From the NCBI GenBank assembly GCA_030599585.1, contig JAUVNS010000007.1:160001-224000 (forward strand): a DNA stretch of 64,000 nt. Direction: 5' to 3'. The position numbers were made by a program, and so were the translations under genes. The notes below the pieces were generated by a model, which saw nothing but the letters and a program-made list of their open reading frames with translations, ran no database searches and was not told where the DNA came from. Below are positions 20,252 to 51,572 of this stretch, in pieces (the first letter of the stretch is position 1; each line of letters begins with the position of its first letter). This DNA comes from Promethearchaeota archaeon. Its GTDB lineage: Archaea > Asgardarchaeota > Lokiarchaeia > Sigyniarchaeales > SOKP01.

Positions 20252-20252
20252 T

Positions 20253-21548: not shown

Positions 21549-21837
21549 TTTTCTCTCTTTCTCTTATTTTATTTTTAATATTATGTCAAAGATTTATAAT
21601 AATGTTTAAACTCATTATAATAAAAATTTTACTTACTTGATTAATATGGGATTCTTTTCCCTTTTGTAGGGCAATTGCATCAAATTTTTCAATGATTTAT
21701 ATGATGTGAATTATAGCGGATTTGATTTTGAGCTCAACTGGGCACTTTATAGATAATAAGCAAATAATTTATATGAACAACATGATAATAATATCCTAAA
21801 TACTTAGAACAATAAAACTAAAAGAGGGATTGCAACA

Positions 21838-23193: not shown

Positions 23194-23194
23194 T

Positions 23195-23542: not shown

Positions 23543-23555
23543 TGTAATTCTTAAT

Positions 23556-24416
23556 TCAATAGAGTTCTTTAATCATTTTTGGAACATCCCAAGGAGTATC
23601 AGCAATTAAGGCACCTGCTTTTTGAAGAGCTTTTATCTTACCTTGAGCCGTACCAAAATCTCCTGAGATAATTGCTCCCGCATGTCCCATTCTTTTTCCT
23701 TCTGGAGCGCTTTTTCCAGCAATATATGCTATTATGGGTTTAGAGACGTGCTCTTTGATATATTCTGCAGTTTTTTCTTCTTCGTCACTTCCAATTTCAC
23801 CTATAAGAACAATCGCTTTAGTTTTTGAATCGTCTGAGTAATATGCTACAGCTTCTTGCATAGGTGTTCCTCTCACAGGGTCTCCACCTATCCCTATATA
23901 TGCTGAAACACCGATATTTTCGTCTCCAACTGCTTTTGTTATCTCATAAGATAAAGTTCCACTTTTTGAAATTATTGCCACATCCCCATAATGACACATA
24001 TTACCTGGCATTATTCCTAATTTAATCTTATCCGGAATCAGCATCCCTGGACAATTCGGACCGATTAAATTTAAATCTTTTTCCTTGGCTTTCTCAACAA
24101 GCTTAATCATATCAAACACGGGAACATTCTCGGTTATAATAACAGTCATGGTGATTCCAGCATTTAAGCTTTCCATGGCTGCTGCTAATGTAAATCTAGC
24201 GGGAACAAAAATAATACTTGTATCTGCACCTGTTTCTTTTCTTACTTCTTTCATTTCGTTAAAAACGGGTATGCCGTATACCTCTTGGCCACCCTTTCCA
24301 GGTGTCACACCTGCGACAATACTAGTTCCATATTCAACCATCAATTTTGTGTGAAACATCCCTTGCGTTCCAGTGATACCTTGCACAACAACTTTTGAAT
24401 TTTCGCTAATATACAT
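23556..24416 (-). CDS. sucD: Succinyl-CoA synthetase alpha subunit
   Basis: VQGITG, GVTPGKGG, IGPNCPG, SKSGTLSYE, GIGGD, MGHAGA. Confidence 0.95.
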   Translation of the reverse strand: MYISENSKVVVQGITGTQGMFHTKLMVEYGTSIVAGVTPGKGGQEVYGIPVFNEMKEVRKETGADTSIIFVPARFTLAAAMESLNAGITMTVIITENVPVFDMIKLVEKAKEKDLNLIGPNCPGMLIPDKIKLGIMPGNMCHYGDVAIISKSGTLSYEITKAVGDENIGVSAYIGIGGDPVRGTPMQEAVAYYSDDSKTKAIVLIGEIGSDEEEKTAEYIKEHVSKPIIAYIAGKSAPEGKRMGHAGAIISGDFGTAQGKIKALQKAGALIADTPWDVPKMIKELY

Positions 24417-24420
24417 TTTA

Positions 24421-25542
24421 TTAACTTAACACCTCCTCCAATTTTTCTACAGCTTCCATAACGTCTTGAAACGCTTCGATACCCGCTTCCTTAAGTAGAG
24501 TAATTCCTTCTTTCTCTTTGGTTCCTGTTAATCGTATAACCATCGGTGGAGCGTCTGAGAAATTGTTTAAAGCTTCAATAATTGCTTGAGCTACTATATC
24601 ACAACGCGTTATACCTCCGAAAATATTAACTAAAACCGCTTTTGGGTTTAATTTAAAGATTAATTCCAAAGCCTTATACACTCTTTCTTTACTAGCACCA
24701 CCTCCAACATCTAAGAAGTTCGAAGGGTGTAATCCTAATTCAGATAGTACATCTAATAAAGCCATTGTGAGCCCGGCTCCATTTGCTAAGATACCAATAT
24801 TCCCCGATAATTCAACAAAGGAAAATCCAGCTTGTTTCGAAAGTTTTTCTAGTACGGATAATTTTTTTTCCTCCAATTTTTGAACGATTGGCTGCCTAAA
24901 CGCAGCGTCGTCGTCCAAAATCATCTTTCCATCTACTGCAAATAGCCCAGAGGGTGTTAATACAAGAGGATTAATTTCTACCAGTTGTGCCTCTAACTTC
25001 AAAGTTATTTCCCATAATTTCATAAATATTTGTGAAGCCGTATCAATCTGTTTGCCATTAAATCCCAATTGCCGCGCCACTTTACCTGCTAATTCTTCAG
25101 AAATCCCTTCTTGAAGGGAGAAGCTCTCCTTTAATATTGCATCTGGAATTGTTTTCGCAACTTCTTCAATATCAATCCCCCCTTCTTTGCTAGCAATTAG
25201 GTAAAATTGTCTCCCAGAGGTATCTAAGGCTATAGAGCAATAATACTCGTGTTCTATTGTTACGAGTTCTTCAATAAGGATTGCTTCAACCTGAAACCCA
25301 GCAATATTTCTGTTAAAGTATTCTTTACAGAGAGAAATAGCCTCTTCCTTTGTTTGAGCAATTTTTATTAAACCCGCTTTTTTTCTACTTCCAATAGCGA
25401 TTTGTGATTTAACAATTGCAGGGAATGAAAAACTTTTAACTTTTTCTTCAACATTTTCTCCCCTTACAATTAACACGTTCTTAACTATAGGAATATTAAA
25501 CATGCTAAAAATTTCCTTGCTTTCGTATTCGAGCAATCTTAT
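24421..25542 (-). CDS. sucC: Succinyl-CoA synthetase beta subunit
   Basis: LEYESK, KSQ, EGGIDIEE, EINPL, NGAGLTMA, NFLDVGGG, NIFGGITRCD. Start is either TTG 25536 or ATA 25542, which has the better-spaced GGAGGT. Confidence 0.92.
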   Translation of the reverse strand: MRLLEYESKEIFSMFNIPIVKNVLIVRGENVEEKVKSFSFPAIVKSQIAIGSRKKAGLIKIAQTKEEAISLCKEYFNRNIAGFQVEAILIEELVTIEHEYYCSIALDTSGRQFYLIASKEGGIDIEEVAKTIPDAILKESFSLQEGISEELAGKVARQLGFNGKQIDTASQIFMKLWEITLKLEAQLVEINPLVLTPSGLFAVDGKMILDDDAAFRQPIVQKLEEKKLSVLEKLSKQAGFSFVELSGNIGILANGAGLTMALLDVLSELGLHPSNFLDVGGGASKERVYKALELIFKLNPKAVLVNIFGGITRCDIVAQAIIEALNNFSDAPPMVIRLTGTKEKEGITLLKEAGIEAFQDVMEAVEKLEEVLS

Positions 25543-31009: not shown

Positions 31010-32749
31010 ATGGAAAATAAAAATCATATTGATAACATCTCAATTGTCCTCTGTGGTGCAGCGGGTCAAGGGATTCAGACGGTAGAGGCTTTACTTACAA
31101 AAACATTGAAAAAATCAGGATTTTACGTGTTTGCAACAAGGGAATATATGAGTCGCGTCAGAGGTGGCGTTAATTCCACAACTATTCGTGTTGCATCTAA
31201 ACCTGTGCGAGCTTTTATTGATCGAATTGATATCTTAATTCCGCTAAACGAAGAAGCAGTCCCTCATCTCAAAGAGAGAATATCCTCTCACACACTAATT
31301 ATAGGCGAGAAACGATATATTGATGTCATACCGGACCTTAATAGCGAAAAGGTTGAAATCCCTTTTGAAGAATTATCAAACAATATTGGTGGAAGAATTT
31401 ACGCTAATATTATTGCTCTTGGAGTTATAATATGTATGCTTAAAGCAAACATTAACATTTTACATACCTTAATTACTAAAAACTTTAAGATAAAAGGAGA
31501 ACCCGTTATTGAGAATAATATTAAAGCTGCAAACAAAGGATATGAAACAGCGGAAGTGTTGATAAATAATCGCACACTTAAGGGAGAATTTGAAATCGAA
31601 AGGGTTCCTGAAGTAGTGAATGATTACATTATAGATGGAAAACAAGCTATTGGTTTAGGTGCGATTGCTGGCGGTTGTAATTTCGCTTGTTTTTACCCCA
31701 TGGCGCCATCTACTGGTATAGCGACATTTCTTGCGCAACACGCGCTTGAGTTCGATATGATTGTGGATCAGTCGGAAGACGAACTAAGCGTGATTAATAA
31801 AGCGTTAGGGGCGTCTTATGCTGGTGCTCGAGCGTTTGTATCAACTGCTGGAGGGGGTTTCTCTTTAATGTCTGAAGGAGTCAGTTTAGCCGGTATGACG
31901 GAGTTACCGATTGTTATTGTAGTAGGAATGCGTCCTGGACCTGCGACCGGAATGCCAACAAGAACTTGCCAAGAAGATGTTGAACTTGTTTTGTATGCCG
32001 GGGCGGGCTTTTTTCCAAAAGTGATTTTTGCTCCAGGTTCTATTGAAGATGCCTTTCTGCTTACACAAAGAGCGTTCAATATAACTCAAAAATATCATGT
32101 TCCTGTATTTATTTTACCAGATCAATATTTAGTAGATTCCTACTATAATATTAACTCGCTAAATATAGGTGCTCTTGAAATTCATAAGAACCTAGTTAAA
32201 ACGGATGCAAGCTACGAAAGGTATAAGTTCACAGATAGTGGAATTTCTCCTCGAGGTGTTCCGGGATATGGTGATGGACTCGTTGATGCTGATTCTCATA
32301 CTCATACTGAAAGCGGCGAAATCACCGAAGATCCAATTCTCCGAAAAAAATCAGTCCAGAAACGGTTTAAGAAATTAGGACTTCTGAGAAAAGAAGCAAT
32401 ACCCCCTGAATTCATAGGTAATGAAGACTATAAATACTTAGTTGTTAGTTGGGGTAGTAATTACTATTTAATCAAAGAAGCGTTAGAAAAACTTGATAGA
32501 GACGATGTAGGATTCTTGTTCTTCAAACAGATATATCCCGTTCATAAAATTGTTTTTGATTACCTTACTAGGGCGGAAGTAAAGATAGCTATCGAACAAA
32601 ATCCAACTGGTCAATTTGCCAAACTGTTAGAAAATGAAACACACATCAACATGAATCACAGGATTTTAAAACATAGTGGATACACATTTTCAGTCGAGGA
32701 AATACATGAAAGATTAAAAAAAGTAATAGAGGGTGATGAAAATATCTAG
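31010..32749 (+). CDS. korA: 2-oxoacid:ferredoxin oxidoreductase alpha (gamma-alpha fused) subunit
   Basis: GAAGQGIQT, EYMSRVRGG, YPMAP, QSEDE, GGGFSLM.E, RPGPATGMPT. Confidence 0.9.
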   Translation: MENKNHIDNISIVLCGAAGQGIQTVEALLTKTLKKSGFYVFATREYMSRVRGGVNSTTIRVASKPVRAFIDRIDILIPLNEEAVPHLKERISSHTLIIGEKRYIDVIPDLNSEKVEIPFEELSNNIGGRIYANIIALGVIICMLKANINILHTLITKNFKIKGEPVIENNIKAANKGYETAEVLINNRTLKGEFEIERVPEVVNDYIIDGKQAIGLGAIAGGCNFACFYPMAPSTGIATFLAQHALEFDMIVDQSEDELSVINKALGASYAGARAFVSTAGGGFSLMSEGVSLAGMTELPIVIVVGMRPGPATGMPTRTCQEDVELVLYAGAGFFPKVIFAPGSIEDAFLLTQRAFNITQKYHVPVFILPDQYLVDSYYNINSLNIGALEIHKNLVKTDASYERYKFTDSGISPRGVPGYGDGLVDADSHTHTESGEITEDPILRKKSVQKRFKKLGLLRKEAIPPEFIGNEDYKYLVVSWGSNYYLIKEALEKLDRDDVGFLFFKQIYPVHKIVFDYLTRAEVKIAIEQNPTGQFAKLLENETHINMNHRILKHSGYTFSVEEIHERLKKVIEGDENI

Positions 32750-33602
32750 TGAAGAATTTGATTTAGATGAGGTTGAGATATCCTGGTGTCCTGGATGCGG
32801 TAATTATAGCGCTTTAAAAGTAATGAAAGAAGCTTTAACTGATTTAGGGATTAAACCGCATGAATTTGTGTTAGTTTCTGGCATAGGACAAGCTGGAAAG
32901 TTTCCACATTTTATAAAGGCTCAAAGTTTTAACGGTTTACATGGTCGGTATCTATCTGCAGCGTTGGGAATAAAAGCGTCTAATCCCGAGCTCACTGTAA
33001 TTGCGGTAAGTGGCGATGGGTGCACCTTAAGTGAGGGCGGTAATCATTTTTTGCATACGATCAGATACAATCCTGATATTGTAAATGTATTGCACAATAA
33101 TCAAGTTTATGGTTTGACGAAAGGCCAAGCATCACCGACGAGTCAATTAGGATTTAAAACAAAAATTCAAGTATTTGGAGTTATAAACGAGCCCTTTAAC
33201 GCACTGGCAGTTGCAATTTCTCTTAACGCATCCTTCGTAGCAAGAGCTTTTGTTGGTGACTTAGATAAAACAAAAGAATTACTAAAAAAAGCAATTAATC
33301 ATAAAGGATATGCCCTAATCGATTTATTATGCCCTTGTGTTACTTTTAATCGGGTAAATACGTATCAATGGTATAAAGAACATAGTTACTACATTGATGA
33401 TGCTCATGATCCTTTTGACCAAATGAAAGCCATGAAAGTAGCGTTAGATACTAGTCGTTTAGCATTAGGAATTTTATACAAGAATCCAAATAGGCGACCT
33501 TACAGCGAAAATGTTCGTATTTATAACGAAGATAAACGACCTTTACATCAAAGGGACCTAGATAAAGAGAAATTCAGCCAATTACTTGAAAGCCTTAGAT
33601 AA
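32733..33602 (+). CDS. korB: 2-oxoacid:ferredoxin oxidoreductase beta subunit
   Basis: WCPGCG, LHGR, GDG..NN TPP motif, YGLTKGQASPT, CPCVTFN. Confidence 0.9.
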   Translation: MMKISSEEFDLDEVEISWCPGCGNYSALKVMKEALTDLGIKPHEFVLVSGIGQAGKFPHFIKAQSFNGLHGRYLSAALGIKASNPELTVIAVSGDGCTLSEGGNHFLHTIRYNPDIVNVLHNNQVYGLTKGQASPTSQLGFKTKIQVFGVINEPFNALAVAISLNASFVARAFVGDLDKTKELLKKAINHKGYALIDLLCPCVTFNRVNTYQWYKEHSYYIDDAHDPFDQMKAMKVALDTSRLALGILYKNPNRRPYSENVRIYNEDKRPLHQRDLDKEKFSQLLESLR

Positions 33603-33729
33603 GCGTATAAATTTAAGTTTTAAATTCTAATTTTATATTTATTTCATATTTAGATACCAAATTCTAAGCGTATTTTTTTATAGATTATTAGTAAAATCTT
33701 TTTATTCAATATAAGAATATTACATTTTA

Positions 33730-35442
33730 ATGAGAGTCGAAGAATTTGATGTAGTTGTAATAGGCGCCGGTTTAAGTGGCTTGAGAGCGGGTTTAGAGCT
33801 ATCGAAAAAATGGAACACTGCAGTTATTAGCAAAGTCTATCCTGTCCGGAGCCATTCAGGAGCAGCTCAGGGTGGAATAAACGCTGCTTTGGGTAATTTA
33901 GAAGAAAGCAAAAACGACACGCCAAAAGGACATGCGTTTGACACAGTAAAAGGTTCAGATTATCTTGCTGATCAAGATGTAGTTATGTTTATGTGTAAAG
34001 AAGCACCTAAGATTGTAGTTGAGTTCGAAAGCATGGGGGCACCATTTTCGAGATTAGAATCTGGTCTTATTGCTCAGCGTCCCTTTGGTGGAGCTGGTTT
34101 TCCTCGAACTTGTTATGCGGGGGATCGTACAGGACACGCCTTACTCCACACTTTAAATGAACAGAGCGTTCGAAGTGGCGTAGAGTTTTTCAACGAATAT
34201 TTTTTAATAGACTTAATTGTTGTCAACGAAAAAATCACAGGAGTAATTACATTAGATATAACCAAAGGAGAACTCGTAATTTTCCGAGCTTCGTACGTTA
34301 TATTAGCAACAGGAGGATTTGGAAGGATTTTTAAACATTCTACAAATGCCTTAATTAACACGGGAGATGGTGTAGGTGCTGCGTTTCGAGCGGGAGTTCC
34401 CATGCAAGATGTTGAATTCGTACAATTTCACCCAACCACGCTATATGGTACAAACATATTAATAACTGAAGGTGCGCGTGGAGAAGGTGGTTATTTATTC
34501 AACACAAAAGGAGAACGTTTTATGAATAAGACCGCTCCAAAAGCAATGGAACTTGCTCCACGAGATATTGTCGCAAGAGCTAACGATATAGAAGTCCTTG
34601 AGGGGAGAGGTTTTGAAAACGCTTACGTTCATTTGGACCTTACTCATCTAGGCGCTGACCGAATAAAAGAAAGGTTACCGGGAATAAGAGATATCTCTAT
34701 TTTCTTTGCTGGAGTAGATCCCATTGAAGAACCAATACCCGTGCAACCTGGACAACATTACTCAATGGGTGGGATCGGGACAAAATATAAGGGTATATAT
34801 GGAGAAACAGATCTCCCAGGATTATATACAATTGGCGAGTGTTCTTGTCTTTCTGTTCATGGTGCTAATCGTTTAGGGGGAAATTCTTTGTTAGAAACGG
34901 CTGTATTTGGTCGTTATCTTGGAAGAAAGCTATTAGAAATTGGCTTGCCTAAAAAAGTATCCTTAAGCGATGTGAAAAGTGCTGAAGATAAAGCTATTGA
35001 TGATGTTGAAAATCTTTTGAAAAGCTGGGATAACAATAAAGGTAAAAAACCAATAGAGATCAAGGATATGATGGGCGAGACTATGAACAAGAATGTTGGA
35101 GTTTTTAGAACTCACGATGATCTGAAAAAAGCGAACGAAATACTTGTTGGGTTACAAAAAGATTTTTTGGATGTCCAAGTTTCCACCGAAGATCGAAAAT
35201 TTAATTATGGATTACTTCGAAATCTAGAACTCAGATGTCTTTTAGATATTGCAGAGGCTACTGCGTATGCTGCTTTATGGAGGAAAGAAAGCAGAGGTGG
35301 ACACTATCGTTGGGATTACGACTCTCGTGATGACGATAATTTTCTTAACCATTCGATGATATATCGGGTAAAAGATGGCTTAGATTTGAAAACTAAACCT
35401 GTTATAGTAGGAATTTTTGAAGTAAAAGAGAGGAAATACTAA
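33730..35442 (+). CDS. sdhA: Succinate dehydrogenase/fumarate reductase flavoprotein
   Basis: RSHSGAAQGG (covalent FAD His), QFHPT, TEGARGEGG, LAPRD, HYSMGG, HGANRLGGNSL. Confidence 0.93.
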   Translation: MRVEEFDVVVIGAGLSGLRAGLELSKKWNTAVISKVYPVRSHSGAAQGGINAALGNLEESKNDTPKGHAFDTVKGSDYLADQDVVMFMCKEAPKIVVEFESMGAPFSRLESGLIAQRPFGGAGFPRTCYAGDRTGHALLHTLNEQSVRSGVEFFNEYFLIDLIVVNEKITGVITLDITKGELVIFRASYVILATGGFGRIFKHSTNALINTGDGVGAAFRAGVPMQDVEFVQFHPTTLYGTNILITEGARGEGGYLFNTKGERFMNKTAPKAMELAPRDIVARANDIEVLEGRGFENAYVHLDLTHLGADRIKERLPGIRDISIFFAGVDPIEEPIPVQPGQHYSMGGIGTKYKGIYGETDLPGLYTIGECSCLSVHGANRLGGNSLLETAVFGRYLGRKLLEIGLPKKVSLSDVKSAEDKAIDDVENLLKSWDNNKGKKPIEIKDMMGETMNKNVGVFRTHDDLKKANEILVGLQKDFLDVQVSTEDRKFNYGLLRNLELRCLLDIAEATAYAALWRKESRGGHYRWDYDSRDDDNFLNHSMIYRVKDGLDLKTKPVIVGIFEVKERKY

Positions 35443-35459
35443 AAAGAGTGTGATTAAAA

Positions 35460-36218
35460 ATGAGCGAGAAACAAAAATTTTTGGTGTATCGAAATTTAGG
35501 AAATGGATCCGTTCGATACGAAAGATATGAAATACCCCTTTCAAAAGGTATGAGTATATTAGATGCTCTTTTTTACATTCAAGATTACTACGACTCTACC
35601 TTCGCTTTTCGCTATGCGTGTAGAGGGGCAATTTGTGGTAGTTGCGGAATGACCATTGATAAAGTTCCTATGTTGGCTTGTAGAACTCAAGTGACAACCG
35701 TTAAAACTTCTAAAAAACCTATTAATCTACCAGAAGTAGTTTTTGGAGATACATCAGATTGGGATCAAGAAAACGAGATTTTAATCGAACCATTACCAAA
35801 TATGAACGTTATAAAAGATTTAGTAGTAGATATGGAACCATTCTGGAAATTTTATCGCGAGATTGAGCCTTACTTCACTAATGAATGGAACGAGACTGCC
35901 CCGGAATCTTCACAATCCCCAAACGATATGAAAACAATAGAAAGGTTAGTCTATTGTATATTGTGTGGAATATGTTGGATGTGCCCTGTAAACGCAAAAA
36001 ATCCTAAATATCTAGGTCCAGCTCAGTTAGCGAAATCAGATAGATTTATCCGAGATTCTAGAGTTGACAGCGAGAAACAGGATAAAATTCTTTCACGAGT
36101 TTTACAAGATGATGCTGTTCCCGCTTGTGAAAAATTCTTCGTATGTAATCGCGTATGTCCTAAAGGAGTTATGCCTGGTACTGCAATAAAGGACATTCGA
36201 GACAATTGGATGAGTTAA
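35460..36218 (+). CDS. sdhB: Succinate dehydrogenase/fumarate reductase Fe-S subunit
   Basis: CRGAICGSC..LAC, IKDLVVD, CILCGICWMCP, CEKFFVCNRVCP. Confidence 0.9.
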   Translation: MSEKQKFLVYRNLGNGSVRYERYEIPLSKGMSILDALFYIQDYYDSTFAFRYACRGAICGSCGMTIDKVPMLACRTQVTTVKTSKKPINLPEVVFGDTSDWDQENEILIEPLPNMNVIKDLVVDMEPFWKFYREIEPYFTNEWNETAPESSQSPNDMKTIERLVYCILCGICWMCPVNAKNPKYLGPAQLAKSDRFIRDSRVDSEKQDKILSRVLQDDAVPACEKFFVCNRVCPKGVMPGTAIKDIRDNWMS

Positions 36219-42117: not shown

Positions 42118-42245
42118 ATCTCCTAATTTCTTAGTTTGTTAATTTTAGAACCTTGAAATTCATTTATTGAATATTAGTATAAACTTTTTTTATGAACCTA
42201 TTTCTAATAACCTTATAAGTAAACATTTTATGGTTGTTTTAAACT

Positions 42246-43625
42246 TTGAAATACCGAATAGAAAAAGATGTTTTAGGCGAAGTAGAAGTTCCAATTGACG
42301 TATATTGGGGAATTAATACTCAAAGAGCTGTTCAGAATTTCCAAATTAGTGGTAAGAAATTCCCTAACATATTTATCATGTCGTTAGCACAACTTAAAAA
42401 AGCGTGTCTATTAGCAAATATGGAGTTGGGGTTAATCGATAAAGAACTTGGAGCTGCGATCTTACAAGCCGTTGACGAGATCTTAAACGAAGAGAAACAC
42501 TTAGATCAATTTCCAATTGATATCTATCAAACTGGAAGCGGGACTCAAACAAACATGAACATGAACGAAGTCTTAGCTAATAGAGCCTCTCAAATCTTAG
42601 GATCTCCTATGGGCAAAAAACATCCAGTCCATCCTAATGATCACGTAAATAAAAGCCAATCTTCTAACGATGTTATCCCAAGTACGATGCATATATCAAC
42701 TGTGCAAATGATCCAAAAATTAATTCCAGTATTAAACAGTTTAAAAGATGTTCTCTCTACTAAAATTGAAGAATTCGAAGATATTATCAAAGTAGGAAGA
42801 ACTCATTTACAAGATGCTATCCCAATACCACTATCGTTAGAGTTTAAAGTGTACAAAAAACAAATTGAAATTAATATTGAGCGATTAAAACATGTAATAG
42901 ATGAATTATTATTCATCCCAATAGGTGGTACAGCTTTAGGGACAGGTTTGAATGCTCAAAAAGATTTTGACAAACTCACCGTATCCCACCTCTCAAAAAT
43001 AACTTCGCTATCCATTAAACTCAATCCAGTAAAAGCAGAAGGAATATCTTCACATAATACTATAGCTTACGCTAGCAGTAGTTTAAGACTTTTAGCATTA
43101 TCACTTTTAAAAATGGCAAACGATATACGATGGATGGGTAGTGGTCCAAGAGCGGGTCTTTCAGAATTAATTCTACCACAAAATGAACCAGGATCGTCTA
43201 TAATGCCTGGAAAAATTAACCCCACCCAATCTGAAGCTTTAATTCAAGTTTGTCTTCAAGTGATTGGAAATGATTCTGTCGTTACAAGTGGAGAAATGTA
43301 TGGAAGCATTTTGGATTTAAACATGAGTAAACCAGTTATGATCGTAAATGTTCTTGAATCCATTGACATTTTAATCGGTGGAATTAATTCTTTTACTGGC
43401 CACTGTTTAGTAGACTTAAAAGCAAACGCGGAACAAATCGATTCGAACTTAGAGCAAATGTTAATGCTTGTTACTAACCTTACACCGATAATAGGTTATG
43501 ACAAATGTTCTGAAATTGCCCAACGGGCTTATAACGAAGGTAAATCGTGTAAAGTAGTAATTAAAGAGATGGGTTTAAAAATCGATAATTTGGACGAACT
43601 TTTAGATCCTAAGAATATGGTGTAG
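42246..43625 (+). CDS. fumC: Class II fumarate hydratase
   Basis: QTGSGTQTNMN, HPNDHVN, GRTHLQDA, GSSIMPGKINP. Confidence 0.93.
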   Translation: MKYRIEKDVLGEVEVPIDVYWGINTQRAVQNFQISGKKFPNIFIMSLAQLKKACLLANMELGLIDKELGAAILQAVDEILNEEKHLDQFPIDIYQTGSGTQTNMNMNEVLANRASQILGSPMGKKHPVHPNDHVNKSQSSNDVIPSTMHISTVQMIQKLIPVLNSLKDVLSTKIEEFEDIIKVGRTHLQDAIPIPLSLEFKVYKKQIEINIERLKHVIDELLFIPIGGTALGTGLNAQKDFDKLTVSHLSKITSLSIKLNPVKAEGISSHNTIAYASSSLRLLALSLLKMANDIRWMGSGPRAGLSELILPQNEPGSSIMPGKINPTQSEALIQVCLQVIGNDSVVTSGEMYGSILDLNMSKPVMIVNVLESIDILIGGINSFTGHCLVDLKANAEQIDSNLEQMLMLVTNLTPIIGYDKCSEIAQRAYNEGKSCKVVIKEMGLKIDNLDELLDPKNMV

Positions 43626-43645
43626 GAGAATATAGAGGTGAAAGT

Positions 43646-44701
43646 ATGACATTAGAAGAAATGACATTAACTAAGGTTCGAGAGGAAGCTAAGAAGAAAC
43701 TCATGGGAGTCTGTGGAGTATATAAAATATGCGATGGAGATGCAATGCGAATCTGTCAAGGTCAAAGCTATGGAAGACCACTTGGATTTGGTGGAATTGG
43801 GAGCGGGGCTTCTTTTAATAACAATGTTCTAGCTTTGAAAAAATTGAAGCTAAAAATGAAAACAATCGGAGATCATTTTGAAGCAGATACTACATATGAT
43901 TTTTTTGGTAGAGAACTATCAATGCCAATAATGGGGGCGAGTATAGCAGGAATAAATAGTTTTGGTGGAGAAAAGGTAATTTCAGAGAAGGAATTCTGCC
44001 GTTCAGTGGTTCTTGGTTGTAAAGATGCGGGAACAATAGGTTGGCGGGGTGACACTTATACATATTCGCTTGATGAGTCTTATGGAATTGACGCAATTGT
44101 TGAAGCTAATGGACTTGGTGTGAAAATCGTGAAACCAAGAGAACAAAAAGTAATCATAGACTTCTTTAAAAAAGCTGAAAAAGCGGGAAGTGTAGCTGTT
44201 GGAGTAGATATTGATGGGTGTGGGTCTTATGCTATGGCTACTCACAATAAACCTGTCTTTAATAAAAATTTTGATGATCTTAAAGAATTAGTATCATCGA
44301 CGACATTACCCGTAATCATAAAAGGAATTATGAGTTTAGATGATGCTGTTGCCGCAAAAGATGCAGGGGCAGCTGCAATAGTTGTCTCTAATCATGGGGG
44401 GAGAGTTTTAGATCATACTCCTGGAACTGTAGAAGTTCTTCCTGAAATTGTTGCTGAACTTGAGGGAAAAACTCGAATAATCATAGACGGGGGATTTCGA
44501 ACTGGATACGATATTTTGAAAGCACTTGCCCTTGGTGCTGAATCTGTATTAATCGGGCGAGATATCGTTAGAGCTGCTGTTGGAGCTGGAATAGAAGGTG
44601 TTAGACTTCAAATGGAACATCTACAGAAAACTCTAGCAAAGGCGATGAAAATGACAAATTGTAAGGATTTAACAGAAGTTAATAGATTCATTCTATATTA
44701 A
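43646..44701 (+). CDS. FMN-dependent alpha-hydroxy-acid dehydrogenase/oxidase family
   Basis: IIKGIM, VSNHGGRVLD, DGGFRTG.D, ALGA; Cys-containing N-terminal segment. Confidence 0.87.
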   Translation: MTLEEMTLTKVREEAKKKLMGVCGVYKICDGDAMRICQGQSYGRPLGFGGIGSGASFNNNVLALKKLKLKMKTIGDHFEADTTYDFFGRELSMPIMGASIAGINSFGGEKVISEKEFCRSVVLGCKDAGTIGWRGDTYTYSLDESYGIDAIVEANGLGVKIVKPREQKVIIDFFKKAEKAGSVAVGVDIDGCGSYAMATHNKPVFNKNFDDLKELVSSTTLPVIIKGIMSLDDAVAAKDAGAAAIVVSNHGGRVLDHTPGTVEVLPEIVAELEGKTRIIIDGGFRTGYDILKALALGAESVLIGRDIVRAAVGAGIEGVRLQMEHLQKTLAKAMKMTNCKDLTEVNRFILY

Positions 44702-44727
44702 TTTTTTAATATCTCTTATTCTATCAC

Positions 44728-44805: not shown

Positions 44806-46053
44806 GTGAAAGAAGATAAGAGAAAAATTGGTGAAGATTATAGTGATGCTGAATCCGAGCTCAGCGAGCTAGATCACCCAAAAATACATAAAGGTTTGGT
44901 TGGACTCTATGTGGATGAGAGTTTGATTACATATATTGATGGAGAAAATGGAAAATTATACTATCGTGGTTATCCTGTTAAAGAATTATGTGAGAATTCC
45001 ACTTTTGAGGAAGTTGCTTATTTGCTTATATTTGGAAAACTTCCTAGCAATTCTGAGTTTAAAGAGTTTAAAGATTTATTAATAAAAGAAAGAAATATTC
45101 CAGATAATATCATTAGTCTTCTAAAAAGTTTTCCAAGGAACACTACAAGGATTGAACTCCTAAGAACTGCAATCTCTGCTCTTTCATTGTATGATCCAGA
45201 TGATTATGATTATACTGAACCAGCCAATATTAGGAAAGGGCTTAGAATTGTTGCCAAAATGCCAACTTTATTAGCATTTGCTCATAGGATTCAAACTAAT
45301 TTGCCTCTTGTAGAACCTTCTGAAGATCTTTCTCATTCTGCAAATTATTATTATATGATGACGGGAAAAATACCAACCACGGATTTTGAACAAGCCTTTG
45401 ATGATGTATTAATCTGTCATGCAGATCATTCTATTAATTCTTCAACATTCTCTTGTCGTGTAACCGTCTCAACACTTTCAGATATTTATAGTGGTATTAC
45501 AAGTGCTATAGGTACACTGAGAGGCCCTCTGCACGGTGGGGCAAATGAGGCGGTCATGAAATATATGGTTAATGAGATAAAAAGAAAAGAATTTGTTATT
45601 CCTTGGGCAGAGAAAAAATTTGGAAGAAAAGAAAAAATTATGGGATTTGGACATAGAGTATACAAAACTTGGGACCCAAGAGCTAAAATTTTAAGAGGTC
45701 TATCAATGGGTTTTTATAAGAAAGCTCTAAATGGGGAATTAATTGATAAAATTCCTAATAATGGACATGACATCCACGATGAGGTTGATTATATCGTAGA
45801 AATGACTGAGATTCTCAATGATTATGTAATCAAAACTAAGAATATATATCCTAATGTAGATTTATATTCCGCAGGATTATTGCATATATTAGGAATTCCT
45901 ACAGCATCTTTTACACCATTATTCGCAGCAAGTAGATCGGCAGGATGGGTTGCTCACGCCATAGAACAACTTAAAGATAACAAACTAATCAGGCCTAGGC
46001 TTCGATATATTGGTGAACTAGATAAAAAATACGCGAAAATTGAAGAGAGATAA
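44806..46053 (+). CDS. gltA: Citrate synthase / 2-methylcitrate synthase (copy 1)
   Basis: LYYRGY, HADH, GPLHGGANE, MGFGHRVYK, PNVD, LIRPR. Confidence 0.88.
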   Translation: MKEDKRKIGEDYSDAESELSELDHPKIHKGLVGLYVDESLITYIDGENGKLYYRGYPVKELCENSTFEEVAYLLIFGKLPSNSEFKEFKDLLIKERNIPDNIISLLKSFPRNTTRIELLRTAISALSLYDPDDYDYTEPANIRKGLRIVAKMPTLLAFAHRIQTNLPLVEPSEDLSHSANYYYMMTGKIPTTDFEQAFDDVLICHADHSINSSTFSCRVTVSTLSDIYSGITSAIGTLRGPLHGGANEAVMKYMVNEIKRKEFVIPWAEKKFGRKEKIMGFGHRVYKTWDPRAKILRGLSMGFYKKALNGELIDKIPNNGHDIHDEVDYIVEMTEILNDYVIKTKNIYPNVDLYSAGLLHILGIPTASFTPLFAASRSAGWVAHAIEQLKDNKLIRPRLRYIGELDKKYAKIEER

Positions 46054-47642: not shown

Positions 47643-48890
47643 ATGAAAAAAGATACTCGTAAAATAAAAGAAGATTATATAGCAGAAGGACCTCAACTCT
47701 GCAATCTTGATAGATCAAAAACATATAAGGGATTGGTCGGAATTTATGTTGATGAAAGTTTAATTACTTTGATTGATGGGGAAAAGGGTAAGTTATATTA
47801 TAGAGGATATCCACTTAAGGATTTGGTAAACAATTCAAGTTTCGAAGAAGTCGCTTACCTCTTAATCTATGGAAATTTACCAACCGTTTCTGAACTCGAA
47901 ATATTTAAGAACGAGCTGATAAAAGAGCGCACTATCCCAGACAGCATCGTGACAATTTTAAAAAGTTATCCTCGGAATACTACTCGAATTGAATTGTTAA
48001 GGACTTCGGTTTCTGCGTTGTCTCTTTATGATGCTGACGATTATGTCTATACAGAAGAAGCAAACATTAGAAAGGGAATTAGGATAATAGCTAAAATACC
48101 AACAATTCTCGCGTTTGCTCATAGAATTCAAGAAAACCTATCATTAGTAGAACCATCAGAAGACCTTTCTCATGCTGGAAATTACTATTATATGATGACT
48201 GGAAAGAAACCAAGCAAGGATTTTGAGAGAGCTTTCGATAAAATTCTCATTTGTCACGCAGACCATTCGATAAATTCATCTACTTTCTCATGTCGAGTAA
48301 CTGTATCTACATTATCTGATATATATAGTGGAATAACAAGCGCTATTGGAACTCTTAGAGGGCCACTACATGGTGGTGCGAACGAGAGAGTAGTTAGATT
48401 AATGCTCGAAGAGATTAAAAAAAAAGAAAATGTTATTCCTTGGGTCAAAAATAAGCTGGAGAATAAAGAAAAGGTCATGGGTTTCGGTCATCGTGTCTAT
48501 AAGACGTGGGATCCACGCGCTATTATCCTCCGAGCTTTGTCTAAAGAATTTTGGGAAAAAGAAGAGAGTGGAAAGATTGATAAAATCCCTGACCAAGAAC
48601 ATGAAGCACATCGTGGAGATATTGATAATATTTTTCAGATGACTGAAATGCTCACTGATTATATTATCAAAACAAAAAATATTTACCCGAATGTAGACTT
48701 ATATTCTGCGGGATTACTTCACGTTTTAGGAATACCAACGCCATTATTCACGCCGTTATTTGCAGCGAGTAGATCCGCAGGATGGGTTGCTCACGCTCTT
48801 GAACAGCTCAAGGACAATAAATTGATTAGACCAAGACTTCGATATATTGGTGAGTTAGATAAAAAATACGTAAAAATTGAAGAAAGGTAA
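47643..48890 (+). CDS. gltA: Citrate synthase / 2-methylcitrate synthase (copy 2)
   Basis: Same motifs and same length (415 aa) as copy 1; abuts acnA. Confidence 0.88.
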   Translation: MKKDTRKIKEDYIAEGPQLCNLDRSKTYKGLVGIYVDESLITLIDGEKGKLYYRGYPLKDLVNNSSFEEVAYLLIYGNLPTVSELEIFKNELIKERTIPDSIVTILKSYPRNTTRIELLRTSVSALSLYDADDYVYTEEANIRKGIRIIAKIPTILAFAHRIQENLSLVEPSEDLSHAGNYYYMMTGKKPSKDFERAFDKILICHADHSINSSTFSCRVTVSTLSDIYSGITSAIGTLRGPLHGGANERVVRLMLEEIKKKENVIPWVKNKLENKEKVMGFGHRVYKTWDPRAIILRALSKEFWEKEESGKIDKIPDQEHEAHRGDIDNIFQMTEMLTDYIIKTKNIYPNVDLYSAGLLHVLGIPTPLFTPLFAASRSAGWVAHALEQLKDNKLIRPRLRYIGELDKKYVKIEER

Positions 48891-51572
48891 GTGGATAACA
48901 TGAACGAAATCGAAATTCAGAAAAAATTCAGGGAAGAAATTAATAATAAAGACGGTATTGCATCAATTTACAATCTTAAAAAATTAAAAACGCTTGGTTT
49001 TGGAGATATAGATAAATTACCATATTCTTTAAGAATATTGCTTGAGAATGTTATTCGTAATTTAGATGGAGAAGTTGTAACAGAAGCAAATTTCCTTGCA
49101 CTCTCCACATGGGTGCCAAATCAAAAGGAAAAAAAAGAAATTCCATATATTCCTTCAAGAGTATTACTTCAAGACTTTACTGGCGTGCCCGCCGTTGTTG
49201 ATCTCGCAGCTTTAAGATCAGCTATAAAAAGAGCAGGAAAAGATCCTGATACAATTAATCCTCTTATCCCCGTAGATTTAGTCATTGACCATTCAATCCA
49301 AGTTGATTATTATGGGACTAACGACGCACTAAAATTGAATGAAGAGAAGGAATTTGAGCGCAACTATGAGCGATATGTATTTTTAAAATGGGCTCAAACA
49401 GTTTTTAACAACTTTCGTGTAGTTCCTACAAGTAGAGGTATATGTCATCAAGTAAATTTAGAATATCTTGCCTCTGTTGTTCAATTAAGGGAAGATAAAG
49501 GAGAGTTATATGCATTCCCCGATACATTAGTAGGTACTGATTCACATACTACAATGATTAATGGATTAGGAGTTTTGGGATGGGGTGTTGGTGGAATTGA
49601 GGCTGAAGCAGTCATTTTAGGGCAGCCATACTATATGAATATTCCCGAAGTAGTTGGTGTTAAATTAATTGGTGAACCTCAAGATGGAATTACTGCTACT
49701 GATGTAGTCCTCACTATTACTCAAATTCTTAGAGCCCACGGTGTAGTTGGTAAGTTTGTTGAATTCTATGGGCCAAGTCTTGACAAGTTAAGGCTACCAG
49801 ATCGAGCTACGATTGCAAATATGGCTCCTGAATACGGTGCTACAATGGGATTTTTTCCTGTAGATGATAAAACCATAGACTATCTTATTTTGAGTGGTCG
49901 CGAAAAAGAGCACATTGAATTTGTAAGGGAATATTTAAAAAAAGTAGGTCTGTATTATGCTCCATCTACATCAACTCCAAATTTTAGTGAAACCTTAGAA
50001 ATTAATTTAACTGAGATAGAGCCTAGTTTAGCAGGACCAAAGAGACCACAAGATAGAATTTCTCTTAAAGATATGAGAAAAGAATTTATCAATCAACTAA
50101 AAACTTCTTATACCAAATCAGACGAAGTAGACTTAATAGCTGGTATTGATTCCGGCACCCTTAAACATGGGTCAGTTGTTATAGCGGCAATCACCTCATG
50201 CACAAATACTTCCAATCCTTCAGTTATGGTTGGAGCAGGAATGATTGCGAAAGCTGCTGTCGATAAGGGTTTAAAAGTCAAAAAACATGTTAAAACCAGT
50301 TTTGCTCCCGGATCTCGAGTTGTTAGAGATTATTTAGAAAGCGCTGGATTATTACCTTATCTTGAAGAATTAGGATTTAATATTGTTGGTTATGGTTGTA
50401 CTACTTGCATTGGAAATAGTGGACCACTCTCTAGTGATATAATTAAAAAAATCGAGGATAAAAATCTCACAGTTGCTTCAGTTCTTAGCGGGAATCGCAA
50501 TTTCGAAGGCAGAATCAGTCCTTACACAAAAGCAAATTACTTAGCATCACCCCCCTTAGTAGTTGCTTACGCAATAGCAGGTACTATTGCAATTGATCTT
50601 GAAAATGAATCCTTAGGTCTAGATTCAGAGGGAAATCCCGTATTCTTAAAAGATATTTGGCCATCTCATAAAGAATGTCAACAAATTTACATGAGTAACG
50701 TCAACCCAGATCAATTTACTAAAGAATATGGAGAAATTTTTAAAGGGTGGGAATTATGGAATAATTTAAAACCTCCAACAGAGAATGTCTATAAATGGGA
50801 AGAACAATCTACTTATGTAAGAGAGCCTCCTTTTTTCATGAATTTTCCCCTAGATACTCCTCCCTTAAAGGACATAGAAAGCGCAAAAATTCTTGCAATT
50901 TTAGGTGAAAGTGTAACTACCGACCATATTTCTCCAGCAGGAGCAATACCTGAAGAAATGCCTGCAGGGCGTTATCTAATTTCAAAAGGAATCGAACCTG
51001 AAGATTTCAATTCTTTTGGCTCTAGAAGGGGCAATCACGAGGTAATGATGAGGGGAACATTTGGAAACATACGAATCAAGAATTTACTTGTCGATAAAGA
51101 AGGTGGTTGGACACTTTATCATCCTACGGGAGAAATAATGCCATTATATGATGCAGCTATGAAATACATTGCTTCTGAAACGCCATTGATAGTTATTGCT
51201 GGAAATGATTACGGAATGGGGAGTTCTCGAGATTGGGCAGCTAAAGGTACCCAACTACAAGGAGTAAAAGCAGTTATCGCTGAATCGTTCGAAAGAATTC
51301 ACAGAAGCAATCTTGTAGGAATGGGCGTTTTGCCCTTAGAATTCAAAAAAGGAGAATCTGCAACAACTTTAAAACTAAAGGGAAATGAAACAATTACTAT
51401 CTCTGGAATAAAGAATATTAAGCCTTTCTCTGATCTGACAGTGAGAGTGAAAAAAGAAAATGGAGACATTTTTACATTTGATGTAGTCGTAAGACTTGAT
51501 AGTGAGGTAGATATTGAATATTACCAAAATGGCGGAATATTACATACAGTTCTAAGGAAAATGTTAAATTAG
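48891..51572 (+). CDS. acnA: Aconitate hydratase AcnA (IRP-like)
   Basis: LQDFTGVPAVVDLA, DHS, GICHQVNLE, DSHTT, SCTNTSN, GCTTCIGNSG, TTDHISP, GSSRDWAAKG. Confidence 0.95.
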   Translation: MDNMNEIEIQKKFREEINNKDGIASIYNLKKLKTLGFGDIDKLPYSLRILLENVIRNLDGEVVTEANFLALSTWVPNQKEKKEIPYIPSRVLLQDFTGVPAVVDLAALRSAIKRAGKDPDTINPLIPVDLVIDHSIQVDYYGTNDALKLNEEKEFERNYERYVFLKWAQTVFNNFRVVPTSRGICHQVNLEYLASVVQLREDKGELYAFPDTLVGTDSHTTMINGLGVLGWGVGGIEAEAVILGQPYYMNIPEVVGVKLIGEPQDGITATDVVLTITQILRAHGVVGKFVEFYGPSLDKLRLPDRATIANMAPEYGATMGFFPVDDKTIDYLILSGREKEHIEFVREYLKKVGLYYAPSTSTPNFSETLEINLTEIEPSLAGPKRPQDRISLKDMRKEFINQLKTSYTKSDEVDLIAGIDSGTLKHGSVVIAAITSCTNTSNPSVMVGAGMIAKAAVDKGLKVKKHVKTSFAPGSRVVRDYLESAGLLPYLEELGFNIVGYGCTTCIGNSGPLSSDIIKKIEDKNLTVASVLSGNRNFEGRISPYTKANYLASPPLVVAYAIAGTIAIDLENESLGLDSEGNPVFLKDIWPSHKECQQIYMSNVNPDQFTKEYGEIFKGWELWNNLKPPTENVYKWEEQSTYVREPPFFMNFPLDTPPLKDIESAKILAILGESVTTDHISPAGAIPEEMPAGRYLISKGIEPEDFNSFGSRRGNHEVMMRGTFGNIRIKNLLVDKEGGWTLYHPTGEIMPLYDAAMKYIASETPLIVIAGNDYGMGSSRDWAAKGTQLQGVKAVIAESFERIHRSNLVGMGVLPLEFKKGESATTLKLKGNETITISGIKNIKPFSDLTVRVKKENGDIFTFDVVVRLDSEVDIEYYQNGGILHTVLRKMLN

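What the first reader, a model, noticed from the sequence alone, without database searches (positions are those of the whole stretch)
42246..44701. FMN alpha-hydroxy-acid dehydrogenase behind fumC: candidate for the missing malate dehydrogenase
Malate dehydrogenase is the only TCA step absent from the cluster. The gene 20 nt downstream of fumC (with a GAGGTG SD) and upstream of citrate synthase encodes an L-2-hydroxy-acid-oxidising flavoenzyme, and malate is an L-2-hydroxy acid. The order fumC, this gene, gltA, acnA follows the pathway order. Its N-terminal C-x5-C-x6-C segment may bind an Fe-S cluster. Inference: a non-orthologous malate:acceptor oxidoreductase.
Basis: inference. Interest (0 to 1): 0.7.

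Follow-up and report, generated by a model that had tools for sequence, protein, structure and literature searches.

The report
Candidate flavin/iron-sulfur malate dehydrogenase
Right behind its fumarase gene this Asgard archaeon has an unusual cysteine-bearing flavin enzyme of the lactate/glycolate-oxidase family; its closest relatives lie among citric-acid-cycle genes in many anaerobes, so it is probably an undescribed NAD-independent malate dehydrogenase, but nobody has assayed it.

Summary
fumC (42246-43625) is followed after 20 nt and a GAGGTG by a 351-aa PF01070 protein (43646-44701). Every other TCA step is encoded in the window. The genome has no Ldh_1-type MDH, MQO or malic enzyme. 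One correction: the motif is C23-x5-C29-x7-C37, not x6.

The protein belongs to a distinct "3-Cys" clade. In 28 of 35 sampled loci of that clade, TCA genes (fumC, sdhAB, 2-oxoacid:ferredoxin oxidoreductase, citrate synthase, aconitase) lie within 8 kb. These loci span Asgard archaea, Methanobacteriaceae, Desulfobacteraceae, Myxococcota, Spirochaetota and Fibrobacterota. The sister "4-Cys" clade shows this in 0 of 46 loci. Thirteen of 34 clade-bearing genomes lack Ldh_1, Ldh_2 and MQO. Two of them are cultured TCA-cycle acetate oxidisers, Desulfocicer vacuolatum and Desulfobacter latus.

Against it: the genome has two Ldh_2 (COG2055) genes, the family already proposed in print as the Loki/Thor MDH. 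The enzyme's presence is not complementary to canonical MDH across Asgard genomes. A sister species has deleted the gene but kept fumC and citrate synthase. The substrate, the Fe-S cluster and the electron acceptor are all inferred.

The scan reached the same reading earlier on other Asgard genomes. No description was found in the searchable literature.

The parts
42212..42219 (+). TATA-like CTTATAAG, about 27-34 nt upstream of the fumC TTG start; possible promoter of a leaderless fumC-FMNdh transcript
   Evidence: Read from the sequence.
42246..43625 (+). Class II fumarase (fumC), 459 aa, TTG start giving MKYRIEKD
   Evidence: Pfam Lyase_1 3.2e-95 plus FumaraseC_C. TIGR00979 fumC_II scores 560 bits, against 457 bits for the aspA model TIGR00839. 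Orthologues occur in 105 of 201 Asgard genomes.
43626..43645 (+). 20-nt spacer with the GAGGTG Shine-Dalgarno for the second cistron
43646..44701 (+). 351-aa FMN_dh-family protein (P0001) of the 3-Cys clade; candidate NAD-independent malate:acceptor oxidoreductase
   Evidence: PF01070 at 1.4e-61. AF2 model with pLDDT 86.6 shows a TIM barrel. Foldseek TM 0.72-0.77 to mandelate, long-chain hydroxy-acid and glycolate oxidases. Gene context; tree.
43712..43756 (+). Cys motif C23-GVYKI-C29-DGDAMRI-C37; probable Fe-S (3Fe-4S, or 4Fe-4S with a fourth ligand elsewhere) site
   Evidence: The three Cys are invariant. The sister clade has CxxCxxC(D/N)GxxC at the same place. Residues 24-53 have pLDDT below 50 in the apo model. 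Metal binding was not shown.
44387..44404 (+). S248-N-H250-G-G-R253: catalytic His and carboxylate-binding Arg of the 2-hydroxy-acid oxidase family
   Evidence: Invariant. Aligns to SNHGAR of LOX, HAO1 and Hmo. K226 and D188 are also invariant.
44702..44707 (+). T6 run directly after the stop codon; possible archaeal terminator that would make fumC-FMNdh a two-gene unit
   Evidence: Read from the sequence; inference.
44806..46053 (+). Citrate synthase 1 (consumer of oxaloacetate), next gene downstream
   Evidence: PF00285 at 3.8e-120.
47643..51572 (+). Citrate synthase 2 and aconitase
31010..36218 (+). 2-oxoacid:ferredoxin oxidoreductase alpha/beta, plus anchor-less SdhA/SdhB (fumarate reductase or succinate dehydrogenase)
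   Evidence: The same genes sit in one operon with the FMN enzyme in other lineages.
15009..25536 (-). Monomeric IDH, ATP-citrate lyase alpha/beta and SucCD: the rest of the TCA gene set in the window

Best explanation
P0001 is a member of an uncharacterised clade of the FMN-dependent (S)-2-hydroxy-acid dehydrogenase family. The clade is marked by an N-terminal C-x5-C-x7-C motif. I propose that it interconverts L-malate and oxaloacetate without NAD(P).

Proposed mechanism (inferred): His250 acts as base, Arg253 holds the C1 carboxylate and Lys226 stabilises reduced FMN, as in lactate and glycolate oxidases. The two electrons then leave FMN one at a time through an Fe-S centre held by Cys23, Cys29 and Cys37. 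In many relatives they would pass on through a fused N-terminal rubredoxin to a soluble acceptor.

Here the gene is co-transcribed with fumC, so fumarate -> malate -> oxaloacetate would feed the citrate synthase encoded next.

Shown: family membership, fold, conserved catalytic His/Arg/Lys/Asp, invariant Cys, clade-specific and cross-phylum linkage to TCA genes, and absence of Ldh_1, MQO and malic enzyme in this genome.

Inferred: malate as substrate, the Fe-S cluster, the acceptor and the direction.
For: (1) Family and chemistry. PF01070 scores 208.9 bits. The model is a TIM barrel with TM about 0.75 to mandelate, glycolate and long-chain hydroxy-acid oxidases. K226, H250, R253 and D188 are invariant.

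(2) Context in Asgard genomes. fumC-FMNdh adjacency is seen in 13 loci of two families. FMNdh-CS or FMNdh-ACN is seen in two more families. OFORab-FMNdh is seen in a fifth family. A rubredoxin-fused homologue heads an operon FMNdh-OFORab-fumC-sdhAB in a sixth.

(3) Context outside Asgard. sdhAB-fumC-FMNdh occurs in 8 Methanobacteriaceae/Methanobacteriota loci and one unclassified bacterium. CS and OFORab lie next to the gene in Desulfobacteraceae. CS or ACN lie next to it in Fibrobacterota, Myxococcales and Methanosarcinales. sdhAB and fumC lie next to it in a Treponemataceae genome.

(4) Clade specificity. A quick IQ-TREE splits 81 sequences (SH-aLRT 99) into a 3-Cys clade with 28 of 35 TCA-linked loci and a 4-Cys clade with 0 of 46.

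(5) Missing alternatives. The own genome has no Ldh_1_N, Mqo or malic enzyme. Thirteen of 34 other clade-bearing genomes lack Ldh_1, Ldh_2 and Mqo. These include the isolates Desulfocicer vacuolatum DSM 3385 and Desulfobacter latus AcRS2. Desulfobacter spp. oxidise acetate through a modified citric acid cycle (PMC2702500). From my own memory, not verified here: D. postgatei malate dehydrogenase was reported as NAD(P)-independent.

(6) Co-occurrence. 30 of 36 Asgard carriers also have the fumC orthologue, against about 45% of non-carriers.

(7) Thermodynamic sense (established knowledge). Malate oxidation with NAD+ is strongly endergonic. Flavin, Fe-S or rubredoxin acceptors of higher potential remove that problem, as MQO does in bacteria.
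Against: No assay exists, and the substrate is inferred from neighbours only.

The genome has two Ldh_2 genes. That family is present in 16 of 16 genomes of the genus and 37 of 40 of the family. It is the published candidate for the Loki/Thor MDH.

There is no anticorrelation with canonical MDH: 9 of 36 Asgard carriers, and almost all Methanobacteriaceae carriers, also have Ldh_1.

Five of 15 fumC-positive genomes of the same genus lack the gene. In one of them it is visibly deleted down to its first 30 codons while fumC and CS stay, so it is dispensable there.

One Asgard family (f5) carries it without TCA neighbours.

The positions of GOX Tyr24, Tyr129 and Arg164 are not conserved in recognisable form, so the active site differs from all characterised members. 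No conserved extra basic residue for a second carboxylate could be placed in the active site. R309 is clade-specific, but its position relative to the substrate is unknown.
Confidence: 0.5

Rival explanations
1. It oxidises another L-2-hydroxy acid (L-lactate, glycolate or L-2-hydroxyglutarate). The 2-oxo acid product feeds the neighbouring 2-oxoacid:ferredoxin oxidoreductase or the rubredoxin-fused pyruvate-oxidase-like enzyme. The malate/oxaloacetate step is done by the Ldh_2 (COG2055) proteins.
For: All characterised family members act on monocarboxylic or aromatic 2-hydroxy acids (titles of PDB hits). OFORab is the immediate neighbour in Hodarchaeota, an Asgard f22 genome and Desulfobacteraceae. 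A rubredoxin-POX homologue lies 4.6 kb upstream here and heads the cluster in one bacterium at 62% identity. Ldh_2 is near-universal in this Asgard family and is the published MDH candidate. The gene is dispensable in sister species that keep fumC, CS and Ldh_2. An earlier scan note (e1-5574728) read the pair as an oxidase-type module.
Against: The commonest and tightest partner is fumC (gaps of about 10-30 nt in the two loci read closely: 20 nt here; 13 nt in L062), whose product is L-malate. CS, which consumes oxaloacetate, is the next most common partner. Desulfobacter latus and Desulfocicer vacuolatum carry the gene but have no Ldh_1, Ldh_2 or Mqo. From my own knowledge, they are acetate specialists that do not grow on lactate. 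The own-genome Ldh_2 genes have no TCA neighbours, and their best NCBIfam match is L-sulfolactate dehydrogenase, below its cut-off. No lactate permease lies nearby.
Confidence: 0.3
2. It does not turn over a TCA intermediate itself. Instead it is a redox module (FMN plus Fe-S) that passes electrons to or from the anchor-less SdhAB or the OFOR, or it acts on a non-hydroxy-acid substrate, as some PF01070 members do (type 2 IPP isomerase, MftD).
For: SdhAB here and in relatives has no membrane anchor genes nearby and needs a soluble redox partner. The N-half active-site residues differ from the canonical family. The sister 4-Cys clade is fused to ATP-grasp ligases or HAD hydrolases, which suggests chemistry other than simple hydroxy-acid oxidation there. 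A co-fold of SdhB with this protein gave only weak support: ipSAE 0.45 (runs 0.46, 0.01, 0.45) against a best control of 0.00. That mark was reached by 58 of 80 solved complexes and 2 of 110 mismatched pairs, but scores of 0.60 or under came from only 7 of those 80 solved complexes and from both mismatches that passed. Contact agreement between runs was at least 89% and partner pLDDT at least 88.
Against: The substrate-handling residues His250, Arg253, Lys226 and Asp188 are invariant across the clade. That is hard to explain for a pure electron carrier. Many clusters hold the gene with CS and ACN but without SdhAB.
Confidence: 0.12
3. The linkage to fumC is a lineage-specific accident of gene order with no functional meaning.
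For: Kin share gene order. Several Asgard genomes carry the gene elsewhere (family f5).
Against: TCA linkage, with varying partner genes and orders, recurs in Asgard archaea, Methanobacteriota, Methanosarcinales, Desulfobacterota, Myxococcota, Spirochaetota and Fibrobacterota. It is absent from all 46 sampled members of the sister clade.
Confidence: 0.03

Closest known systems
FMN-dependent (S)-2-hydroxy-acid oxidases/dehydrogenases (PF01070): glycolate oxidase/HAO1, L-lactate oxidase, (4-hydroxy)mandelate oxidase, long-chain hydroxy-acid oxidase, LldD
   Same: Same TIM-barrel fold (TM about 0.75). The C-terminal half aligns at 1e-33 to 1e-44. Catalytic Lys, His, Arg and Asp and the FMN-phosphate motifs are conserved.
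   Different: The N-terminal half is barely alignable. The GOX Tyr24, Tyr129 and Arg164 equivalents are not conserved (Lys160 aligns with Tyr129 in the core Asgard group). There is an extra invariant Cys3 motif. The hosts are strict anaerobes. The gene context is the TCA cycle rather than lactate, glycolate or mandelate use.
Flavocytochrome b2 (yeast L-lactate:cytochrome c oxidoreductase)
   Same: A PF01070 dehydrogenase that passes electrons from FMN to a built-in one-electron carrier domain. This is a working analogue of the Cys3 site, and of the N-terminal rubredoxin domain of many clade members.
   Different: The carrier is a heme b5 domain, not Fe-S or rubredoxin. The substrate is lactate. 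The enzyme is mitochondrial and aerobic.
Malate:quinone oxidoreductase (MQO, PF06039)
   Same: The proposed physiological role is the same: NAD-independent malate oxidation by a flavoenzyme within the TCA cycle. Like MQO in E. coli or Corynebacterium, it can coexist with NAD-MDH.
   Different: MQO is unrelated in fold and sequence, uses FAD, and is a membrane-associated quinone reducer. It is absent from this genome and from all 22 clade-bearing genomes tested.
Ldh_2 / COG2055 malate/L-sulfolactate dehydrogenases (archaeal MdhII/ComC type)
   Same: The competing candidate for the same metabolic step in this genome. Two copies are present, and the family has been proposed as the Loki/Thor MDH.
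   Different: It is NAD(P)-dependent and has an unrelated fold. There is no TCA gene context here. It is present irrespective of fumC.
Sister '4-Cys' clade of the same subfamily (CxxCxxC(D/N)GxxC; Clostridia, Nitrospirota and others; some members fused to ATP-grasp or HAD domains)
   Same: 35-47% identical over the full length, with the same Cys-rich N-terminal segment and the same catalytic residues.
   Different: It has a fourth Cys where this clade has Tyr26. It lacks the G43 insertion, S194 and R309. It was never found next to TCA genes in 46 loci. It is also uncharacterised.

Membership tests
FMN-dependent 2-hydroxy-acid oxidase/dehydrogenase family (PF01070) | Match to the family profile above the curated cut-off | tested here: met
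   208.9 bits against a cut-off of 24.9, in two stretches. The C-terminal half matches strongly and the N-terminal half weakly.
FMN-dependent 2-hydroxy-acid oxidase/dehydrogenase family (PF01070) | (beta/alpha)8 barrel resembling solved members | tested here: met
   AF2 model with pLDDT 86.6 and pTM 0.88. Foldseek E of 1e-24 and TM 0.72-0.77 to Hmo, LCHAO, GOX, LOX and FCB2.
FMN-dependent 2-hydroxy-acid oxidase/dehydrogenase family (PF01070) | Catalytic His and carboxylate-binding Arg (SNHG[AG]R), Lys at flavin N1, and Asp partner of the His | tested here: met
   H250, R253, K226 and D188 are invariant in 24 and in 80 sequences. They align to the same residues of LOX and HAO1.
FMN-dependent 2-hydroxy-acid oxidase/dehydrogenase family (PF01070) | Two active-site Tyr (GOX Y24, Y129) and a second Arg (GOX R164) that hold the substrate | tested here: not met
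   In the profile alignment HAO1 Y132 falls on K160. That position is Q, P or A in other clade members. No Arg aligns with R164/R167. The Y24 region aligns to LGFGG. Alignment confidence in this half is low, so structural equivalents cannot be excluded.
FMN-dependent 2-hydroxy-acid oxidase/dehydrogenase family (PF01070) | Binds FMN and oxidises an L-2-hydroxy acid | not testable with these tools
   Needs protein expression and an assay.
Malate dehydrogenase by function (any fold) | Interconverts L-malate and oxaloacetate | not testable with these tools
   Supported only by gene context and by the lack of other MDH types in 13 of 34 carrier genomes.
NAD-dependent MDH/LDH (Ldh_1) | Rossmann Ldh_1_N domain | tested here: not met
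   P0001 has no such domain, and none is found in the genome.
Malate:quinone oxidoreductase (PF06039) | Mqo FAD domain | tested here: not met
   Not present in P0001 or in the genome.
Iron-sulfur flavoproteins (functional class) | Conserved Cys ligand set for an Fe-S cluster | tested here: inconclusive
   Three Cys are invariant. The sister clade has a ferredoxin-like four-Cys spacing at the same site. The loop is unmodelled in the apo model (pLDDT below 50). Neither metal content nor Zn versus Fe-S can be told from sequence.

The most novel reading that the evidence does not exclude
The clade is a new, fourth kind of malate dehydrogenase (FMN plus Fe-S, NAD-independent). It hands its electrons, directly or through its rubredoxin domain, to the anchor-less SdhAB encoded beside it. 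Together with FumC this would form a soluble, quinone-free malate:fumarate oxidoreductase module (2 malate -> oxaloacetate + succinate) in Asgard archaea, Methanobacteriaceae and some anaerobic bacteria. The same enzyme would be the long-unassigned NAD-independent malate dehydrogenase of Desulfobacter.
Probability: 0.15. Interest if true: 0.85.

Novelty: new variant of a known kind. Interest (0 to 1): 0.68.

Why it matters
If the assignment is right, it adds a new enzyme type for a textbook step of central metabolism. It would close a recurrent 'gap' in TCA reconstructions of Asgard archaea, which matter for models of the metabolism of the archaeal ancestor of eukaryotes. It would also close the same gap for several anaerobes, including cultured Desulfobacter species in which none of the three other MDH families searched here (Ldh_1, Ldh_2, MQO) is encoded. 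It would explain how malate oxidation can run without the thermodynamic burden of NAD+ in organisms without quinone-linked MQO. It would also define a first function for an Fe-S/rubredoxin-linked branch of the 2-hydroxy-acid oxidase family. Cultured hosts and easily expressed homologues exist, so the idea is directly testable.

Tried and rejected
- Canonical MDH, MQO and malic enzyme were searched in the own genome. None was found.
- Phyletic complementarity with Ldh_1 across 201 Asgard genomes was tested and not found: 25% of carriers have Ldh_1, against about 16% of non-carriers. It is not used as support.
- Contexts of three distant relatives (a 4-Mb bacterium, Romboutsia, Methanomassiliicoccales) showed no TCA genes. 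This was later explained in part: Romboutsia carries the 4-Cys motif, while the other two are rubredoxin-fused 3-Cys forms without TCA neighbours.
- I looked for a clade-specific basic residue that could bind malate's second carboxylate. K160 and the WRGDTYTY segment are confined to the core Asgard group and absent from rubredoxin-fused TCA-linked members. R309 is clade-wide, but its spatial position could not be checked because no coordinates are accessible. No claim is made.
- Co-fold of SdhB with the enzyme gave weak support only: ipSAE 0.45 against a best control of 0.00. It is cited only under the electron-partner rival and the novel case.
- Ten literature searches found no description of this clade. 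They also found no accessible text for the recalled NAD-independent malate dehydrogenase of Desulfobacter postgatei. That point remains memory only.
- The possibility that 'fumC' is an aspartase was considered. The fumC_II model scores 560 bits against 457 for aspA, but both are below their cut-offs. Fumarase is kept as the more likely reading.
Full report
**What is there.** The finding's interval holds two co-directional genes. The first, at 42246-43625, is a class II fumarase (Lyase_1 + FumaraseC_C). Its best NCBIfam model is fumC_II at 560 bits, against 457 for aspA, and both are under their strict cut-offs. A 20-nt spacer with GAGGTG follows. The ATG-started ORF at 43646-44701 then encodes a 351-aa protein, P0001, which matches PF01070 (FMN-dependent dehydrogenase) at 1.4e-61.

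A TATA-like CTTATAAG lies about 30 nt before the fumC TTG, and a T6 run directly follows the P0001 stop codon. The pair therefore looks like a two-gene unit.

**The window as a TCA cluster.** The window comes from a 4.85-Mb, 52-contig Asgard (Promethearchaeota-like) genome rated 100% complete with 8.9% contamination. Between 15009 and 51572 it encodes:
- monomeric IDH, ATP-citrate lyase alpha/beta and SucCD;
- a two-subunit 2-oxoacid:ferredoxin oxidoreductase and anchor-less SdhAB;
- fumC, two citrate synthases and aconitase.

Malate dehydrogenase is indeed the only TCA step not represented. The whole genome has no Ldh_1_N, Mqo or malic-enzyme domain. It does have two tandem Ldh_2 genes on another contig.

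**The protein.** Only residues about 195-350 align well to solved L-lactate, hydroxymandelate and glycolate oxidases. A profile of relatives extends the alignment weakly into the N-terminal half. K226, H250, R253 (in SNHGGR), D188 and the FMN-phosphate motifs are invariant. An AlphaFold2 model (pLDDT 86.6) is a TIM barrel, and its best PDB matches are mandelate, long-chain hydroxy-acid and glycolate oxidases at TM about 0.75.

The positions of GOX Tyr24, Tyr129 and Arg164 are not recognisably kept. HAO1 Tyr132 aligns with Lys160 here, and with Gln, Pro or Ala in other clade members.

All three Cys are invariant. The loop 24-53 is the one part of the model with pLDDT below 50, as expected for a cofactor-dependent segment, though this proves nothing.

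**The subfamily and its two clades.** An exhaustive profile-free search found only 187 50%-identity clusters at E<1e-30. Of the 150 best, 68 carry CxxCxxC(D/N)GxxC at the equivalent site and 12 carry the C-x5-C-x7-C form. Relatives include three fused forms: an N-terminal rubredoxin fusion, an ATP-grasp ligase fusion and a HAD hydrolase fusion.

I took 80 loci from one-genome-per-species contigs and typed each for the motif and for TCA genes within 8 kb. A quick IQ-TREE splits them, at SH-aLRT 99, into two clades:
- a 3-Cys clade of 35 rows including the window, of which 28 have TCA neighbours;
- a 4-Cys clade of 46 rows, of which none has TCA neighbours.

Residues that mark the 3-Cys clade are Tyr26 (Cys in the other clade), a Gly43 insertion, Ser99, Ser194 and Arg309.

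**Gene context.** In 201 sampled Asgard genomes, 36 carry an orthologue (at least 59% identity) and 5 carry a more distant rubredoxin-fused form. The contexts by lineage are:
- Two Loki-like families: fumC sits directly upstream in 13 loci, and CS or ACN often sits downstream.
- Two other families: FMNdh-CS(-ACN).
- A fifth family: OFORalpha-OFORbeta-FMNdh. In another genome of that family the gene sits next to cytochrome bd oxidase, with fumC 8 kb away.
- A sixth family: the rubredoxin-fused form heads the operon FMNdh-OFORab-fumC-sdhAB.
- One family carries it without TCA neighbours.

Outside Asgard archaea:
- Seven Methanobacteriaceae/Methanobacteriota loci and one unclassified bacterium have sdhA-sdhB-fumC-FMNdh; an eighth Methanobacteriaceae locus (L091) has sdhAB-FMNdh without a fumC match.
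- Desulfocicer, Desulfobacterium and other Desulfobacteraceae have CS and OFORab beside it.
- Fibrobacteria and Chitinivibrionales have CS-FMNdh.
- A Myxococcales genome and a Methanosarcinales genome have ACN and CS beside it.
- A Treponemataceae genome has sucC, sdhBA and fumC beside it.

The partner genes vary, but the pathway does not. That is the pattern expected of a pathway member, and the step between fumC and CS is malate to oxaloacetate.

**Are other malate dehydrogenases missing?** Partly. Among 34 other genomes of the 3-Cys clade, 14 have Ldh_1. None of the 22 tested has Mqo. Thirteen have none of Ldh_1, Ldh_2 or Mqo. Two of the thirteen are cultured isolates, Desulfocicer vacuolatum DSM 3385 and Desulfobacter latus AcRS2, which do encode class I fumarase and malic enzyme.

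Desulfobacter species oxidise acetate through a modified citric acid cycle (PMC2702500 citing Brandis-Heep 1983). I recall that the D. postgatei malate dehydrogenase was reported as NAD(P)-independent, but I could not retrieve a text that says so. These isolates are the strongest single argument and the best place for an experiment.

- First, Ldh_2/COG2055 proteins are the published candidate for MDH in Loki- and Thorarchaeia (bioRxiv 10.1101/385732). They occur in 16 of 16 genomes of this genus. The own copies have no TCA neighbours, and they score best, though below cut-off, against L-sulfolactate dehydrogenase.
- Second, presence of the FMN enzyme is nested within fumC-positive genomes (30 of 36) but is not complementary to Ldh_1 (9 of 36 carriers have both). 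Many fumC-positive Asgard genomes have neither.
- Third, in the same genus 5 of 15 fumC-positive genomes lack it. In one (fumC 90% identical), only the first 30 codons survive between fumC and citrate synthase, so the enzyme is dispensable there.

These facts fit an enzyme that works alongside another malate dehydrogenase, as MQO does alongside MDH in some bacteria. They fit a different hydroxy-acid substrate equally well.

**Mechanism proposed, and its status.**
- Shown: family, fold, conserved catalytic set, invariant Cys, clade-specific TCA linkage.
- Inferred: L-malate is oxidised at FMN by the His250/Arg253/Lys226 machinery. Electrons leave through an Fe-S centre on Cys23, Cys29 and Cys37 (a fourth ligand is unknown; Cys192 is frequent but not universal). 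In many relatives they pass through a fused rubredoxin to a soluble acceptor.

SdhAB lacks anchor genes and is the most frequent operon partner after fumC. A direct malate-to-fumarate electron path is therefore conceivable. A co-fold of SdhB with the enzyme gave only weak support (ipSAE 0.45; runs 0.46, 0.01 and 0.45; best control 0.00). At such scores, passes are more often wrong than right unless the pairing was likely beforehand.

**Novelty.** No paper describing this clade was found in ten full-text searches. The scan itself has reached the same reading on several other Asgard genomes. One of those notes, claiming relatives in other phyla among cycle genes, gave me the lead that I then tested and confirmed. 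I rate it a new variant of a known enzyme kind. Confidence is about 0.5 that malate/oxaloacetate is the physiological substrate pair, about 0.3 for another 2-hydroxy acid, and about 0.1 for a mainly electron-transfer or other role.

Noticed in passing
window 37266-39062 (-): A pyruvate-oxidase-like TPP/FAD enzyme with an N-terminal rubredoxin domain (598 aa). A 62%-identical homologue heads an sdhAB-fumC-FMNdh cluster in an unclassified bacterium (L079). Rubredoxin fusions to flavoenzymes seem to be a recurring electron-exit device in these anaerobes.
   Followed up: partly
L053:7917-8295 (G071, sister species): A recent deletion of the FMN enzyme gene. Only its first 30 codons (91% nt identity) remain, followed by a stop, between intact fumC and citrate synthase. 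A second relative (G162, L054) has replaced FMNdh-CS-MFS-CS by a 791-aa ORF on the other strand.
   Followed up: partly
G000:C22:28683-30996 (L045:8651-11048): Two tandem Ldh_2 (COG2055) paralogues, 370 and 380 aa. Their best NCBIfam match is L-sulfolactate dehydrogenase, below cut-off. The pair is conserved in tandem in many genomes of the genus, and its function is untested.
   Followed up: partly
window 23195-23542 (-): A 115-aa protein with an SH3 domain (SH3_1/SH3_2), immediately downstream of sucD on the same strand. This is a eukaryote-like domain sitting in a central-metabolism cluster.
   Followed up: no
P0132, P0142, P0147, P0164, P0171 (metagenomic); L101, L102, L104, L111, L129, L137: The 4-Cys sister clade includes proteins of about 750-930 aa in which an ATP-grasp L-amino-acid-ligase-like domain (LAL_C2) is fused in front of the FMN domain, mostly in Spirochaetota. 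A HAD-fused form also exists (P0163). The function is unknown and there is no TCA context.
   Followed up: no
window 39703-41160 (+) and 39263-39568 (+): A 485-aa and a 101-aa ORF with no Pfam or NCBIfam match lie between the rubredoxin-POX gene and the alpha/beta-hydrolase that precedes fumC.
   Followed up: no
L042:5838-8257 (G139): In one Asgard genome (family f22) that also encodes a COX3-like protein, the FMN enzyme is divergently adjacent to cytochrome bd oxidase cydAB. This hints at a link to a respiratory chain in that lineage.
   Followed up: no
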